Positions 43,435 to 62,477 of a stretch of DNA of 64,000 nt are shown piece by piece. The translations under genes and the position numbers were made by a program. Origin of the DNA: a virus (lineage: Duplodnaviria; Caudoviricetes); the IMG/VR virus record IMGVR_UViG_3300025154_000056, positions 32,001 through 96,000 of that record, one strand, 5' to 3'. The stretch's first letter is position 1, and each line of letters begins with the position of its first letter. The notes beneath the pieces were generated by a model. That model was not told the origin of the DNA. It was given only the letters and a program-made list of their open reading frames with translations, and searched no databases.

Positions 43435-43490
43435 CCCCGCAACCCTAAGAGTCTGCGAATTCAGACTCAACGAACGAAAGGTAATTGAAA

Positions 43491-44612
43491 ATGCGACGCG
43501 GACTGGCTGCTGTAAAGCAGGTCAAAGAAGAGATGGATCAGAATGCTGGGGCGAATAGCTACGTCCCTCATTTCACTCTGGAGGACGGTGAGTCAGCCAT
43601 CGTTGGACTCACAGGAGACAGGGACCAAGAACCTGTAATCCTCGAAGAGCACAGTATCAAGCAAGGGAACAACTTCACCACCATCATCTGTAGTGCGGAC
43701 CGACCCAAGTTCAAGGGGAAGTGCGTTTCTTGCCACACGAATGCGAGTGGCAATAGGCAGGTGAACCGGACCAACAATAGAGCCGCGTTCAATGTGTACG
43801 ATTTCCGACTCGTGCATCCTGTGAAGAACAAGGAGAAGTCGAAGAAGTACGGGCGTGACATTTTTGACAAGGTTCTTTGCACAGGAGAGGTGAAGTGCAA
43901 GCGCTGTCGGAACGGGAAGGAACCAGAGTACTGGGGTGAGAAGCAGTGGAAGCTGTCTATGACCTGGGCGGCTATCTTGGCTGCTCTCAATGACGATGAG
44001 CGTGCTAGGTGCAAGTGTGGCGGCAAGATCACCGTTACTGGGTACCTGGACCCAGAAAACGACAAGGTCTACAAGCATGTCGATGAGGATATGGACACGG
44101 ACGGGTTTGAGGAGATCCTCGAATGCTCCAAGTGCGAGGAGCCTGACCCGTACACCATCTTTGACTTTCCAATCAAGGTGAGGCGTAGCGGTAAAAACAA
44201 GTCCACTGCGTATGCAATCAGTATTGTCAAGGACGACCCTGAGATACAAGAGATCTTCGACGCCCTAAAGGAAGATGGTGAATTGAAGCCCGCTGACTTG
44301 GAGAAGATCAACTCTCCCCTGTCTCTGCAAAAACAAGCTGAGCTTATCGGCGTGGTCAACCCCTACAGCAGCAAGTCCGACCGCTCGGAAGACTATGACG
44401 ATGACGAGGAGGAGGATGATTACGAAGAGACCGAGGATGAAGACGACGACATGATGGAGGACGAAGATGAAGATGAAGATGATGAGGATGATGACGATGA
44501 CGATGACGAAGATGATCCTCCTCGCCGCCCTGCTACTCGTCGAGGTACGAAGAAGAAGGCTGCTAAGAAGCCCACCAAAGGTGCGAAGCGTAGCCTCAGA
44601 CTGAAGAAGTGA
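43491..44612 (+). CDS. gp32-like single-stranded DNA-binding protein with Zn-binding Cys clusters, acidic tract and basic tail
   Basis: F.LEDGESA.V, C...CVSC, FNVYD, IKVRRSG...T.Y; long D/E tract; between primase and polymerase (alternative TTG start 43485). Confidence 0.75.
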   Translation: MRRGLAAVKQVKEEMDQNAGANSYVPHFTLEDGESAIVGLTGDRDQEPVILEEHSIKQGNNFTTIICSADRPKFKGKCVSCHTNASGNRQVNRTNNRAAFNVYDFRLVHPVKNKEKSKKYGRDIFDKVLCTGEVKCKRCRNGKEPEYWGEKQWKLSMTWAAILAALNDDERARCKCGGKITVTGYLDPENDKVYKHVDEDMDTDGFEEILECSKCEEPDPYTIFDFPIKVRRSGKNKSTAYAISIVKDDPEIQEIFDALKEDGELKPADLEKINSPLSLQKQAELIGVVNPYSSKSDRSEDYDDDEEEDDYEETEDEDDDMMEDEDEDEDDEDDDDDDDEDDPPRRPATRRGTKKKAAKKPTKGAKRSLRLKK

Positions 44613-60117: not shown

Positions 60118-60134
60118 TAGCGACGGAGGTGAAC

Positions 60135-60554
60135 ATGAAACGGAGTCGGATGAATGCGAGAAGCAACCCGAACCGCACCAACCCCGACTTCTGGTGGGTG
60201 GAAGTCGATGGCAAAAAGACTTGGACAGGGCCCGTGTCGAACGCAGAGTGGGCTGCCAAGTTCAGTAAGGTGCAGGGTTACAAACAAGCACCACAATATA
60301 ACCTGTGCTGGGCCTCGAACGAGATGCGGCATCAGGACGTGTGCGCCGCGAAGCTCTACGAAGAGTGCGACCGGTGCAATGTCAACAGGTTGTATAAGTA
60401 CAGATTGCCAGTGAAATCGGAGCTGGTGTTCAGATTCAACGCACTCGTTGAAATAATAGCTCTGGAGACACGGCGGAAGGGTGCTAAATTGCGGAGTCCA
60501 ATATTCCGCTTGACACTGAAAAACATCGGACGTAAATTGGCTGGACCAAAGTGA
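60135..60554 (+). CDS. Hypothetical protein
   Basis: GGAGGT RBS before ATG 60135. Confidence 0.6.
   Translation: MKRSRMNARSNPNRTNPDFWWVEVDGKKTWTGPVSNAEWAAKFSKVQGYKQAPQYNLCWASNEMRHQDVCAAKLYEECDRCNVNRLYKYRLPVKSELVFRFNALVEIIALETRRKGAKLRSPIFRLTLKNIGRKLAGPK
60510..60538 (+). promoter_or_regulatory. Sigma70-like promoter for the H1-like operon
   Basis: TTGACA-17-TAAATT. Confidence 0.65.
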
Positions 60555-60590
60555 ACGGACATTTTCCCCCGTCACAAGGAGACGTATATC

Positions 60591-61100
60591 ATGGCAGTGA
60601 AGAAGACAGCGAAGAAGAGCACGAAGAAGACGGCCACCAAGAAGACCACCAAGAAGGCAGCGCCCAAGACGGAGAAGAAGGCGACCAAGAAGGTGGCTGA
60701 GCCCAAGAAGGCGACCAAGAAGGCAGCAGCGGAGCCCAAGAAGGCCACGAAGAAGGCGACCAAGAAGATCACCCCGAAGAAGCCCGCTGAGGTCACCAAG
60801 AAGGCAGCAACGAAGAAGGAACCCAAGGAGAAGGCTGCCCGCAAGGGGCGCCCGAGTGCCATGCTGGCGTGGTCCGACGTCAGCGACAAGGCAAAGAAGC
60901 TGATCACCAAGGTGGAAGGCTTCGAGGAGCAGATCGAGCAGCTCAAGAAGGACATCTCTGACACGCTGACGAACCTCATGGATACAATGGACGCTGCTTC
61001 TTTTGACCATCCGAAGCGCGGTCCGCTGTCTATCATGGTGCGGGGGGATCTGACTTACTGGCGTGCGAAGCCGGTTGGCCGTGCTGGGGGTAAGAAGTAA
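60591..61100 (+). CDS. Histone H1-like protein (KKAT/KKAA repeats) with small C-terminal folded domain
   Basis: AAGGAG RBS; about 85 aa of K/A/T/P/E repeats, then coiled coil and short beta segment. Confidence 0.8.
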   Translation: MAVKKTAKKSTKKTATKKTTKKAAPKTEKKATKKVAEPKKATKKAAAEPKKATKKATKKITPKKPAEVTKKAATKKEPKEKAARKGRPSAMLAWSDVSDKAKKLITKVEGFEEQIEQLKKDISDTLTNLMDTMDAASFDHPKRGPLSIMVRGDLTYWRAKPVGRAGGKK

Positions 61101-61113
61101 GGGGGCTTGGTGG

Positions 61114-61383
61114 ATGATCTTCCGGCTCAAGATCACAAAGAGGCTTCCGGGTCACTGGGTAAAAGCCTCTAGCACTTGCCGGTTCGAAAGTATCGCCACC
61201 AAGTTTGAGAGGGGGAAAGTCGCATCTCTTTTGTATGAGCATGTTGTACAGATAAGAGAGCGGCGACGCGGTGGTATCTGGGTTCGACTAATTGAACCTA
61301 CTAGTTCGTGGGACAGAGAGTTACTTGATGTCAGCTTTGAAGATGCTGGTATCACAATAGAAAGGGATGAAGCACATGGCTAA
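61114..61383 (+). CDS. Hypothetical protein starting MIFRLKI
   Basis: Fills gap; overlaps start of next gene. Confidence 0.55.
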   Translation: MIFRLKITKRLPGHWVKASSTCRFESIATKFERGKVASLLYEHVVQIRERRRGGIWVRLIEPTSSWDRELLDVSFEDAGITIERDEAHG

Positions 61384-62401
61384 CAACAACGGTAAATACG
61401 AAGACATGCCTCTCTCCGAGCTTCGCAAGCTGGCGAAGAGCCTGAAGGTCAATCCTTCTGGAAAGGGTCGCAACATGCTCATTCGAGCAATTCAGAAGGC
61501 TCAATTGGCGAAGGAAGGGAAGTCGACGGCGGCAGACCCCGGTGCGTCGAAGCGCGCAGCTACCAAGAAGCCCGCAGCGACGAAGGCTACTGCCACCAAG
61601 AAGCCCGCTGCCAAGGCAAAGAAGGAAGAGCCCGAAGAGGAAGAGGACGACCTTGCCACCCTCGTGAAGAAGCTGACGAAGGAGGTCGCCAAGCTCGGCA
61701 AGCGGCTGGATGCGCTGGAGGAGGCAGAGCCTGAGACCGAAGAGGAAGAGGAGGAGCCCGAGGAGGAGGACGCAGAGGAAGCCGCCGAGGACGAAGAGGA
61801 AGAGGAAGAAGAGACCGAGGAGGAGGAAGAAGAAGAGACTGAGGACGAAGAAGAGGAGGAGGAGGAGTCCGAGGAAGAGGCTGAGGAAGAGGAGTCCGAG
61901 GAGGAGGAAGAGGACGAGCCCGAAGAGGAGGAGGAAGAAGAGACGGTTGATATCAGCCTCGCTGAGATTGAATCCGCGAAGCTCGACCGGCTCACCGAAG
62001 TCGCGAACTTGATCAACACCAATGGTGGCAAGATCAAGCTGACAAAGAAGACTGAGGTATTGCGTCAGTCGATCGTCAACTTCCTGCAGGAGAATGCGGA
62101 GAAGGTGGTCGAGGATGCCCCCGCGTCGAAGGAAACTCCCGCTGACAACAGCGGAGAGGTGTACGAGGTGGGCGACAAGGTGGAGGTGATGTTCCTGGAC
62201 GAAGACGAGGCAGAGGTCTGGGAAGAAGGCACCGTGGTGAAGATCAAGAAGAACGTCGTGGTCGTCGACATCGGTGACGGGGAAGTCGCCGACGCTCCGT
62301 TCGACTCGGTTCGTCGCCCGGCGAAGAAGAAGGCTACCAAGAAGCCCGCAGCGAAGCCTGCGGCTACGAAGAAGGCCACGAAGAAGACCACCAAGAAGTG
62401 A
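61376..62401 (+). CDS. Multidomain acidic/basic protein: Rho-N/HeH-like, KKPAA repeats, coiled coil, Glu tract, Tudor/SH3-like barrel
   Basis: MPLSELRKLAKSL.V...G.....LI.AI; long E tract; YEVGDKVEV...W.EGTVVKI....VVV...DG......SVRRP. Confidence 0.75.
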   Translation: MANNNGKYEDMPLSELRKLAKSLKVNPSGKGRNMLIRAIQKAQLAKEGKSTAADPGASKRAATKKPAATKATATKKPAAKAKKEEPEEEEDDLATLVKKLTKEVAKLGKRLDALEEAEPETEEEEEEPEEEDAEEAAEDEEEEEEETEEEEEEETEDEEEEEEESEEEAEEEESEEEEEDEPEEEEEEETVDISLAEIESAKLDRLTEVANLINTNGGKIKLTKKTEVLRQSIVNFLQENAEKVVEDAPASKETPADNSGEVYEVGDKVEVMFLDEDEAEVWEEGTVVKIKKNVVVVDIGDGEVADAPFDSVRRPAKKKATKKPAAKPAATKKATKKTTKK

Positions 62402-62421
62402 ACTACGCGTGACTCTGACCT

Positions 62422-62463
62422 AAGCGCTGCGTCCCTCAACAGGGGCCAGCGCTTTCGTCTTTT
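62422..62463 (+). terminator. Probable intrinsic terminator
   Basis: AAGCGCTG..CCC-loop-GGG..CAGCGCTT followed by TCGTCTTTT. Confidence 0.6.
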
Positions 62464-62477
62464 GGAGGGAGTTGAGA

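What the first reader, a model, noticed from the sequence alone, without database searches (positions are those of the whole stretch)
60510..62463. Self-contained 'chromatin-like' operon: histone H1-like protein plus acidic HeH-Tudor protein
Seen: TTGACA-17-TAAATT promoter, three genes, then a terminator. Gene 1 has about 85 aa of KKAT/KKAA/PKK repeats and a small folded C-terminus. Gene 2 carries the MIFRLKI tag. Gene 3 combines a Rho-N/HeH-like helix pair, KKPAA repeats, a coiled coil, a roughly 75-residue Glu tract, a possible second HeH-like unit, a Tudor/Agenet-like barrel and a basic tail. Established: H1-like repeats condense DNA, acidic tracts typify histone chaperones and DNA mimics, and Tudor barrels often bind methyl-Lys/Arg or nucleic acid. 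Inference: a phage DNA-compaction plus chaperone pair that packages or shields phage DNA, or silences the host nucleoid, and a plausible scaffold for the tagged proteins.
Basis: partly seen in the sequence, partly recalled or inferred. Interest (0 to 1): 0.75.

Follow-up and report, generated by a model that had tools for sequence, protein, structure and literature searches.

The report
Phage basic–acidic DNA-binding protein cassette
An uncultured groundwater phage carries a conserved small gene cassette for a lysine-rich histone-H1-like protein and a very acidic protein with two DNA-binding HeH motifs and a Tudor barrel; it always sits inside the phage's 7-deazaguanine DNA-modification genes, and its role is probably to organise DNA, though this is untested.

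Summary
Window 60510-62464 has a sigma-70-like promoter, three co-directional genes (g1 169 aa, g2 89 aa, g3 341 aa) and a strong hairpin terminator.

The domain calls are mostly right. g1 has a 92-residue K/A/T/P tail (net +30) and a confidently folded helix plus three-strand domain with no known relative. g3 has a Rho_N/SAP-type HeH, a Lys-rich linker, a helix, a 72-residue Glu tract (net -59), a second divergent HeH, a Tudor/Agenet barrel and a Lys-rich tail.

New here: g1 and g3 are families. They lie adjacent in every related contig that holds the DNA upstream of g3 (about 14). Wherever the contig is long enough, they lie between GTP cyclohydrolase I and the TGT/DpdA-like DNA transglycosylase. 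g2 is also a conserved small protein. Relatives often carry a fourth, Cys-rich gene.

Not supported: a canonical aromatic cage, charge matching between g1 and g3, or any direct sign of chaperoning or tag-scaffolding. The complex predictor was closed.

Best reading: a phage DNA-architectural basic/acidic pair acting on DNA around replication and modification. It is a new variant built from known domains, of moderate interest. The scan had noted this same stretch before, only in an overlapping window of this genome.

The parts
60510..60538 (+). sigma-70-like promoter TTGACA-17-TAAATT
   Evidence: 10 of 12 matches, the best site in the region. Comparable TTGACA sites lie upstream of g1 in 2 of the 7 relatives checked (3 of 8 lineages with the window). 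Consensus match only; function not shown.
60591..61100 (+). g1: 169-aa basic protein. Residues 1-92 form a K/A/T/P-rich H1-like disordered tail. Residues 93-167 form a conserved helix plus three-strand domain with the motif F-x-H-P-x2-G-x4-M-x-R-x5-W-R-x-K-P-x-G.
   Evidence: composition; 11 homologues, 12 invariant positions; AF2 pLDDT 90.8. No Pfam, PHROG, PDB or BFVD relative.
61114..61383 (+). g2: 89-aa basic protein with the N-terminal MIFRLKITK motif; a conserved small family of unknown fold.
   Evidence: Homologues in G006, L064, L070 and L071. Pairwise BLASTP to the G006 copy gives E 7e-7 over the full length. No Pfam, PHROG or Atlas hit.
61376..62401 (+). g3: 341-aa acidic protein. 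HeH1 13-46; Lys-rich linker 47-86; helix 91-115; Glu tract 119-190; HeH2 195-240; Tudor/Agenet barrel 262-314; Lys-rich tail 315-341.
   Evidence: Rho_N, SAP; 17-member alignment; AF2: folded parts pLDDT about 90, tracts disordered; profile hits to Agenet/Tudor repeat proteins; Tudor folds, Z up to 9.2; HeH1 against HeH2.
62422..62464 (+). intrinsic terminator: a 14-bp interrupted GC-rich stem, then UUCGUCUUUU
   Evidence: -30.4 kcal/mol for the folded 72-nt stretch, z = -2.8. Strong hairpins follow g3 in 5 of the 7 relatives checked (6 of 8 lineages with the window).

Best explanation
g1 and g3 are a conserved pair of phage DNA-architectural ('chromatin-like') proteins. They are made from one small transcription unit inside the replication and DNA-modification half of a myovirus genome.

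Inferred mechanism:
- g1 binds DNA non-specifically through its 92-residue polycationic tail and self-associates through the long amphipathic helix of its C-terminal domain. It would therefore coat, bridge or condense DNA.
- g3 binds DNA through two HeH (SAP/Rho_N-type) modules and its Lys-rich linker and tail; homologues carry AT-hooks in the linker.
- The 72-residue poly-Glu tract of g3 acts as a disordered polyanion. It buffers or competes for the polycationic segments of g1 and of g3 itself, as prothymosin-alpha does for histone H1, or as the acidic tracts of DEK do.
- The strongly acidic Tudor barrel is a docking site for a basic peptide or protein rather than for nucleic acid.

Because the cassette always lies between the preQ0-pathway genes and the TGT/DpdA-like transglycosylase, the DNA it organises is most likely newly replicated phage DNA, around the time it is modified.

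Shown: domain identities, family conservation, gene linkage and genomic context. Inferred: DNA binding, the g1-g3 interplay, timing and target.
For: - Domain identities.
- Opposite extreme charges are conserved in all 8 complete pairs: g1 +10 to +41, g3 -31 to -72.
- g1 lies next to g3, with 0-2 small genes between, in every contig that holds the DNA upstream of g3: G000, G002, G006, G007/L066, L057, L058-60, L064/65, L061/62, L067, L070, L071, L075, L076, L077. This holds although g3 identities are only 21-39%.
- Canonical AT-hooks (RGRP) sit in the linker of several g3 homologues, where the window protein has KKPAA repeats.
- FolE lies upstream and a TGT/DpdA-like gene (phrog_887, E about 1e-27) downstream wherever the contig is long enough.
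- Terminator hairpins after g3 in 6 of 8 lineages mark a discrete unit.
- The position, length and D/E make-up of the acidic tract vary (central, or C-terminal in G001 and G003), while net charge is kept. This is typical of a disordered polyanion, not of a folded DNA mimic.
Against:
- Net charges of g1 and g3 do not co-vary (Spearman -0.04, n = 8).
- The g1 tail matches no curated H1, Hc1 or HC2 model, so 'H1-like' is compositional only.
- The g1 fold has no relative to borrow a function from.
- All carriers belong to one phage clade (MCP 67-79% identical), so conserved synteny may partly be inheritance rather than functional coupling.
- G001 and G003 keep a g3-like gene but no recognisable g1 domain.
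Confidence: 0.45

Rival explanations
1. The cassette is an accessory of the DNA-modification machinery. g3, with g1, recruits or holds the TGT/DpdA-like transglycosylase on phage DNA, or opens the DNA for base exchange. This would fill the role that DpdB plays for bacterial DpdA.
For: - g3 or a g3-like gene lies directly upstream of the TGT/DpdA-like gene, or within about 2-3.5 kb of it, in every lineage with enough sequence, including G001 and G003, which lack a g1 domain.
- FolE, QueD and QueE lie upstream.
- In G001 the transglycosylase itself carries a K-rich/RGR extension. This suggests that DNA-tethering tails matter for this enzyme.
- Bacterial DpdA needs DpdB (PMC10516641, read).
Against: - A strong terminator separates g3 from the downstream genes in 6 of 8 lineages.
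- Unrelated genes (HNH, ligase, glycoside hydrolase) are freely inserted between g3 and the transglycosylase.
- All data come from one phage clade.
- No 7-deazaguanine phage paper read here mentions such partners.
Confidence: 0.2
2. Host take-over pair. g1 condenses and silences the host nucleoid, as chlamydial Hc1 does when expressed in E. coli. Acidic g3 limits or directs this activity so that phage DNA is spared.
For: - Polycationic tail of g1.
- Precedent that H1-like proteins shut down transcription and replication when expressed in bacteria, as summarised in PMC12619734.
- Its own sigma-70-type promoter suggests transcription by host polymerase.
Against: - The cassette sits among replication and modification genes rather than in an obvious early take-over region.
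- Nothing distinguishes host from phage DNA as the target.
Confidence: 0.15
3. Anti-defence decoy. The poly-Glu tract of g3 mimics DNA and soaks up host DNA-binding defence or nucleoid proteins, in line with the anti-restriction role of the surrounding 7-deazaguanine genes.
For: - A 72-residue tract of net charge -59.
- Location in an anti-restriction module.
Against: - The tract is predicted disordered (pLDDT below 50). Its position, length and D/E make-up vary, unlike folded mimics such as Ocr (own knowledge).
- This reading does not explain the two HeH modules, the barrel or the conserved basic partner.
Confidence: 0.08
4. Condensate scaffold. Polycationic g1 and polyanionic g3 phase-separate with DNA. 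The Tudor barrel docks the short basic-hydrophobic N-terminal motif (M-K/I-F-R-L) carried by g2 and by several replication proteins.
For: - The motif M[KRI][FLIVW][RK]L opens 7 plus-strand ORFs in the window against 1 on the minus-strand control, with different codons in each copy.
- A similar motif ends the Cys-rich middle gene in relatives.
- The barrel is strongly acidic (net -9 over 53 residues), so a basic ligand is plausible.
Against:
- The motif may simply be a common N-terminal beta-strand.
- The conserved Trp of the barrel is lost in the G007/L057 lineage.
Confidence: 0.1

Closest known systems
Bacterial and viral histone-H1-like proteins: chlamydial Hc1/Hc2, Pseudomonas AlgP, the C-terminal domain of eukaryotic H1, and the H1-like proteins reported in 'moraphages' (PMC12619734)
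   Same: A long K/A/P/T-rich, low-complexity polycationic segment (37% K, 21% A over 92 residues). It is expected to bind and compact DNA.
   Different: There is no winged-helix globular domain and no match to the Pfam Hc1, HC2 or linker-histone models. The tail is N-terminal and fused to a novel helix plus three-strand domain. Tail length varies from about 35 to about 150 residues among homologues.
DEK, and the prothymosin-alpha/histone H1 pair (eukaryotic chromatin)
   Same: g3 resembles DEK in combining a SAP/HeH DNA-binding box, long acidic tracts and further DNA-binding segments. A polyanion encoded beside a polycation recalls the disordered ProT-alpha/H1 complex (own knowledge; DEK review PMC13088671 was seen only in the list).
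   Different: There is no sequence homology beyond the HeH motif. g3 has a Tudor barrel and a second HeH. No binding has been shown.
Rho_N (PF07498) / SAP (PF02037) HeH domains
   Same: About 35 residues forming helix-extended loop-helix at the N-terminus. The Pfam Rho_N hit is E 7.4e-11 in a family member and 8.7e-6 in the G001 homologue. AF2 pLDDT is about 96.
   Different: The window protein itself reaches only SAP E 0.004, below Pfam's cut-off. It is not followed by Rho's cold-shock-like RNA-binding domain.
Tudor/Agenet 'royal family' barrels (PHF19, MTF2, TDRD3, SMN, 53BP1, FMRP)
   Same: Same small barrel. VIA Z is 9.2-8.0 with rmsd 1.0-2.5 Å over 49-57 residues. The family profile hits proteins made of 5-31 Agenet/Tudor repeats.
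   Different: No complete conserved aromatic cage. The beta3-beta4 turn is the acidic D-D-G. The barrel has net charge -9. It occurs in a phage, where no methyl-lysine signalling is known.
Mu Gam / Sipho_Gp157 / TOTE domain (PF22709)
   Same: The Atlas structure comparison puts g1 residues 92-161 near this family (TM by query 0.62-0.64 over about 68 residues). Both have a long helix followed by strands.
   Different: There is no sequence support and no PDB or BFVD match. A TM score for a 70-residue part dominated by one helix means little. This is a lead only.

Membership tests
Linker histone H1 / chlamydial Hc1-HC2 | Match to the curated family model (winged-helix GH1 domain, or Pfam Hc1/HC2) | tested here: not met
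   Pfam scan of g1 at E up to 0.1 lists only AIP3 and Peptidase_S64, both below cut-off. The resemblance is compositional.
Linker histone H1 / chlamydial Hc1-HC2 | Lys/Ala/Pro-rich polycationic tract of tens of residues | tested here: met
   Residues 1-92 hold 34 K, 19 A, 14 T and 7 P, net +30. Homologues keep a basic tail of variable length.
HeH (SAP / Rho_N) | About 35-residue helix-extended-helix motif recognised by the Pfam models | tested here: met
   Rho_N matches 3 of 5 members, best E 7.4e-11. SAP matches 4 of 5, best E 2.9e-4. The window protein itself reaches SAP E 0.0043, below cut-off. AF2 gives helices 13-22 and 32-46 with pLDDT about 96.
HeH (SAP / Rho_N), second copy | Profile similarity of residues 190-243 to the first HeH | tested here: met
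   hhalign on columns of A10: probability 90%, E 1.6e-6, 35 columns. AF2 gives helices 195-200, 203-215 and 226-240 with pLDDT about 90.
Tudor/Agenet royal family | Five-stranded SH3-like barrel of about 55 residues, related in sequence to Agenet/Tudor | tested here: met
   VIA: PHF19 Z 9.2, MTF2 9.0, TDRD3 9.0. Foldseek: PHF20 Tudor, TM 0.79 by target, rmsd 2.0. Profile hits carry Pfam Agenet, Tudor_5 and Tudor_3. KOW barrels score only slightly lower (NusG Z 7.8).
Tudor/Agenet royal family | Aromatic cage of 3-4 residues for methyl-Lys/Arg | tested here: inconclusive
   Aromatic columns are 262 (15 of 17 members, but V in the window protein), 273 (10 of 17), 282 W (15 of 17) and 309 (14 of 17). 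Positions 298-301 are acidic, and none is aromatic in more than 4 of 17 members. Model coordinates could not be inspected. The data lean towards no canonical cage.
Histone chaperone / DNA mimic | Direct binding of a basic DNA-binding protein through the acidic region | not testable with these tools
Only the acidic tract itself is shown.
Mu Gam / Sipho_Gp157 | Match to the Pfam models, or a clear fold match | tested here: inconclusive
   Atlas TM is 0.62-0.64. No Pfam hit in 11 members at E up to 10. Best PDB Z is 4.3.

The most novel reading that the evidence does not exclude
The polycation g1 and polyanion g3 co-condense with phage DNA into a membrane-less replication and modification compartment. 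The acidic Tudor barrel recruits proteins that carry the short basic-hydrophobic terminal motif (MxFRLxI): g2, and in this phage a helicase, PolA, the UvsX-like recombinase and others. The TGT/DpdA-like enzyme would modify DNA inside the compartment, shielded from host nucleases. This would be a protein-only analogue of the jumbo-phage nucleus in a 100-kb myovirus.
Probability: 0.08. Interest if true: 0.85.

Novelty: new variant of a known kind. Interest (0 to 1): 0.55.

Why it matters
Phage-encoded nucleoid-associated proteins are few and mostly HU- or H-NS-like. Here a basic/acidic pair built from eukaryote-style chromatin modules (H1-like tail, SAP/HeH, AT-hooks in homologues, Tudor/Agenet, poly-Glu) is conserved across a clade of uncultured myoviruses. 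It is fixed inside the 7-deazaguanine DNA-modification locus.

If the pair organises or shields DNA during modification, it would add a missing architectural layer to phage DNA hypermodification, and it could explain how phage DpdA works without DpdB. The g1 C-terminal domain is a confidently folded family that Pfam, PHROGs, the PDB and BFVD do not cover. The cassette is small and self-contained, so it is easy to test by expression, EMSA and droplet assays.

Tried and rejected
- Close-relative scans of IMG/VR with g1, g3 and FolE found no syntenic relatives. Relatives were reached only through the major capsid protein.
- Word-based homologue searches with the folded parts found only the protein itself.
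- Alignment-based scans of IMG/VR added nothing beyond G002, G006 and G007.
- For the g1 domain: PDB profile search gave coiled-coil noise only; Foldseek PDB best E 1.2; VIA wide best Z 4.3; BFVD best E 0.5; Pfam on 11 members gave nothing consistent.
- The PDB profile search with HeH2 plus barrel gave nothing significant.
- PHROGs on 17 g3 members gave no consistent family.
- Representative bacterial and archaeal genomes hold no g1 motif and no g3 relative, so no host or prophage lead came from them.
- The charge co-variation test was null.
- The Atlas search for g2 gave nothing.
- G008 (40% complete) has FolE and QueC with no g1 or g3 nearby, so adjacency to FolE is not universal in more distant relatives.
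- I considered that the low-complexity ORFs might be non-genes, since antisense frames are also open. I rejected this because of domain-level conservation at 21-44% identity and matching independent gene calls.
Full report
**What is there.**

The window is bases 32001-96000 of a 104-kb IMG/VR virus record, estimated 82% complete. Identical contigs occur in groundwater metagenomes. It is a myovirus with its own replication genes: portal, major head protein, tail sheath, PolA, helicases and a UvsX-like recombinase.

At 60510-62464 I confirm the following:
- A TTGACA-17-TAAATT promoter-like site (10 of 12 matches).
- Three plus-strand genes: g1 60591-61100, g2 61114-61383 and g3 61376-62401. Independent gene calls on the public contigs agree.
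- A hairpin at 62422-62454 followed by a U-run. The folded 72-nt stretch gives -30.4 kcal/mol, z = -2.8.

g1 residues 1-92 hold 34 K, 19 A, 14 T and 7 P (net +30). g3 residues 119-190 hold 55 E and 4 D (net -59). The g3 tail 315-341 holds 12 K.

**Domains of g3.**

- HeH1. Pfam gives the window protein only a sub-threshold SAP hit (E 0.004). Among five family members, Rho_N matches three (best E 7.4e-11) and SAP four. The G001 homologue scores Rho_N at E 8.7e-6.
- Overall fold. AlphaFold2 with a 17-sequence alignment (A10) gives confident folded parts at pLDDT about 90 or more: HeH1 (13-46), a three-helix unit (195-240) and a barrel with strands between 268 and 308. A helix at 91-115 is less confident (about 80-87). 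The Lys-rich and Glu-rich tracts are disordered.
- HeH2. A profile-profile comparison of the HeH1 and 190-243 columns gives probability 90%, E 1.6e-6. The 'possible second HeH' is therefore a diverged duplicate.
- Barrel, by sequence. A three-sequence profile of HeH2 plus barrel, run against 1.84 billion representatives, hit 409 proteins. Many are long proteins that match only the barrel in 5-31 tandem stretches. Pfam calls these Agenet, Tudor_5, Tudor_3 or 53BP1-Tudor repeats.
- Barrel, by structure. The best PDB matches are Tudor domains: PHF19 Z 9.2, MTF2 9.0, TDRD3 9.0, SMN 8.0. KOW is slightly lower at 7.8. Foldseek agrees.
- Aromatic cage. Four columns are mostly aromatic across the family: 262, 273, 282 and 309. 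The window protein has Val at 262. The G007/L057 lineage lacks the Trp at 282. The beta3-beta4 turn is the acidic D-D-G. I could not inspect coordinates, so a canonical methyl-lysine cage is not supported but not excluded.
- Charge. The barrel itself is very acidic (net -9). This argues for a basic protein ligand rather than nucleic acid (inference).

**Domains of g1.**

The C-terminal 75 residues form a conserved family with 11 distinct sequences and 12 invariant positions. The motif is F-x-H-P-x2-G-x4-M-x-R-x5-W-R-x-K-P-x-G. AF2 predicts one long helix and a three-strand meander at pLDDT 90.8.

No Pfam, PHROG, PDB-sequence, Foldseek-PDB, VIA or BFVD relative was found. The only lead is an Atlas structural neighbour, the Mu Gam/Sipho_Gp157/TOTE domain (TM 0.62-0.64), with no sequence support. 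The basic tail matches no H1, Hc1 or HC2 model, so 'H1-like' describes composition only.

**g2.**

g2 is a real, conserved small protein. Homologues occur in G006, L064, L070 and L071, and pairwise E to the G006 copy is 7e-7. Its fold and function are unknown.

**Relatives and linkage.**

Relatives were reached through the major capsid protein (67-79% identity). More came from the g1 profile, a degenerate DNA pattern for the g1 motif and the genomic contexts of distant g3 representatives.

- In every contig that holds the DNA upstream of g3, a g1 homologue lies just before it with 0-2 small genes between. These are G002, G006, G007/L066, L057, L058-60, L064/65, L061/62, L067, L070, L071, L075, L076 and L077. 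g3 identities are only 21-39%.
- The fullest form is a four-gene cassette g1-gX-g2-g3 (L064, L070, L071). gX is a Cys-rich protein that is absent from the window. The G002, G007 and L057 lineages keep gX but lack g2.
- Hairpin terminators follow g3 in 6 of 8 lineages. A TTGACA promoter precedes g1 in 3 of 8. The 'self-contained operon' therefore holds reasonably well.
Linkage is strong.

**Context.**

Wherever the contig is long enough, the cassette lies downstream of the QueD/QueE/FolE genes and upstream of a TGT/DpdA-like transglycosylase (phrog_887, E about 1e-27).

The transglycosylase follows g3 directly in L057, L066 and L067. Elsewhere small or mobile genes intervene: an HNH gene in G002, a ligase in G006, and a glycoside hydrolase and others in the window.

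G001 (98% complete) and G003 lack a recognisable g1 domain. They still have a g3-like protein (HeH, helix, HeH2, Tudor, with the acidic tract moved to the C-terminus) just upstream of the transglycosylase. In G001 the transglycosylase ORF itself carries a K-rich/RGR extension.

All carriers belong to one clade, a terminator separates the units, and G008 has FolE without the cassette. Inheritance therefore cannot be told apart from function.

**Tests of the chaperone idea.**

g1 is always net positive (+10 to +41) and g3 always net negative (-31 to -72). The two charges do not co-vary (Spearman -0.04, n = 8). The acidic tract varies in place, length and D/E content. This fits a disordered polyanion, not a folded DNA mimic. 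The complex predictor was closed, so g1-g3 binding is untested.

**Comparison with known systems.**

The parts are known kinds: H1-like tails as in Hc1, AlgP or the moraphage H1-like proteins (PMC12619734); HeH/SAP/Rho_N; and Tudor/Agenet. The closest functional analogies are DEK (SAP plus acidic tracts plus DNA binding) and the prothymosin-alpha/H1 pair (own knowledge).

The combination is not described in Pfam or PHROGs, nor in the 7-deazaguanine phage literature I read or listed. It was not found in representative bacterial genomes.

**Verdict.**

- Observation: confirmed.
- Interpretation: partly supported. Domains and linkage hold. The cage, the chaperone role and the scaffold role are not shown.
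- Best explanation (0.45): a phage DNA-architectural basic/acidic pair acting on DNA during replication and modification.
- Rivals: DpdA accessory (0.2), host-nucleoid silencing (0.15), condensate or tag scaffold (0.1), DNA-mimic decoy (0.08).
- Novelty: a new variant of a known kind.
- Interest: 0.55.

Noticed in passing
window 36935, 39840, 46325, 51202, 54876, 61114, 63746 (+ strand starts): Seven ORFs, including a helicase, PolA, the UvsX-like recombinase and g2, start with M[KRI][FLIVW][RK]L. The minus-strand control has one such start. The codons differ between copies, so the signal is at the protein level. A like motif (KKFRLRVIK, KKFRLTIA, VRFRLVRRK) ends the Cys-rich middle gene gX in relatives.
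   Followed up: partly
window 60129-60554 (+): The 141-aa ORF just upstream of g1 has a Cys motif (C-x10-C-x2-C) and no Pfam or PHROG hit. It is conserved at the same position in G002 (150 aa), G007 (164 aa) and L067 (137 aa). The g1 promoter lies in its 3' end.
   Followed up: partly
L064 4214-4600; L070 1003-1392; L071 392-730; L052 5211-5570; L044 5781-6131: Relatives carry a fourth cassette gene, gX (about 112-129 aa, several Cys pairs, motif RRIVYC near the N-terminus), between g1 and g2 or g3. It is missing from the window. One representative (P0137) has a gX-like Cys-rich extension fused to g3.
   Followed up: partly
L072 15354-17498 (G001); L073 956-3217 (G003): In the two relatives without a g1 domain, the TGT/DpdA-like ORF is 714 and 753 aa long. 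In G001 the C-terminal extension holds a K-rich stretch and an RGR-type stretch.
   Followed up: no
L072 12263-13207 and 2629-3363 (G001): There are further modular proteins of the same building blocks. One has the permuted order Tudor-like barrel, acidic tract, basic tract, C-terminal HeH. Another has an acidic tract, HeH, K-rich tract and a Cys motif.
   Followed up: no
g3 residues 50-55 (window about 61523-61540) and homologues: The short motif GKGT(A/P)ADP directly after HeH1 is conserved in most g3 members; it is GKSTAADP in the window. Several homologues have canonical AT-hooks (RGRP) in the linker where the window protein has KKPAA repeats.
   Followed up: no
window 44399-44482 and about 44548-44573, inside ORF 43485-44612: Another gene of the replication half contains GAG/GAA-rich stretches similar to the g3 acidic tract (74-92% nucleotide identity over short pieces). 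This is a second acidic tract in the genome.
   Followed up: no
L044 3463-4221 (G002); L051 5378-6619 (G006): The interval between g3 and the TGT/DpdA-like gene is a hot spot for insertions: an HNH-type endonuclease-like ORF in G002 and an ATP-dependent-ligase-like ORF in G006 and L074. Both identities were judged by eye from the sequence only.
   Followed up: no
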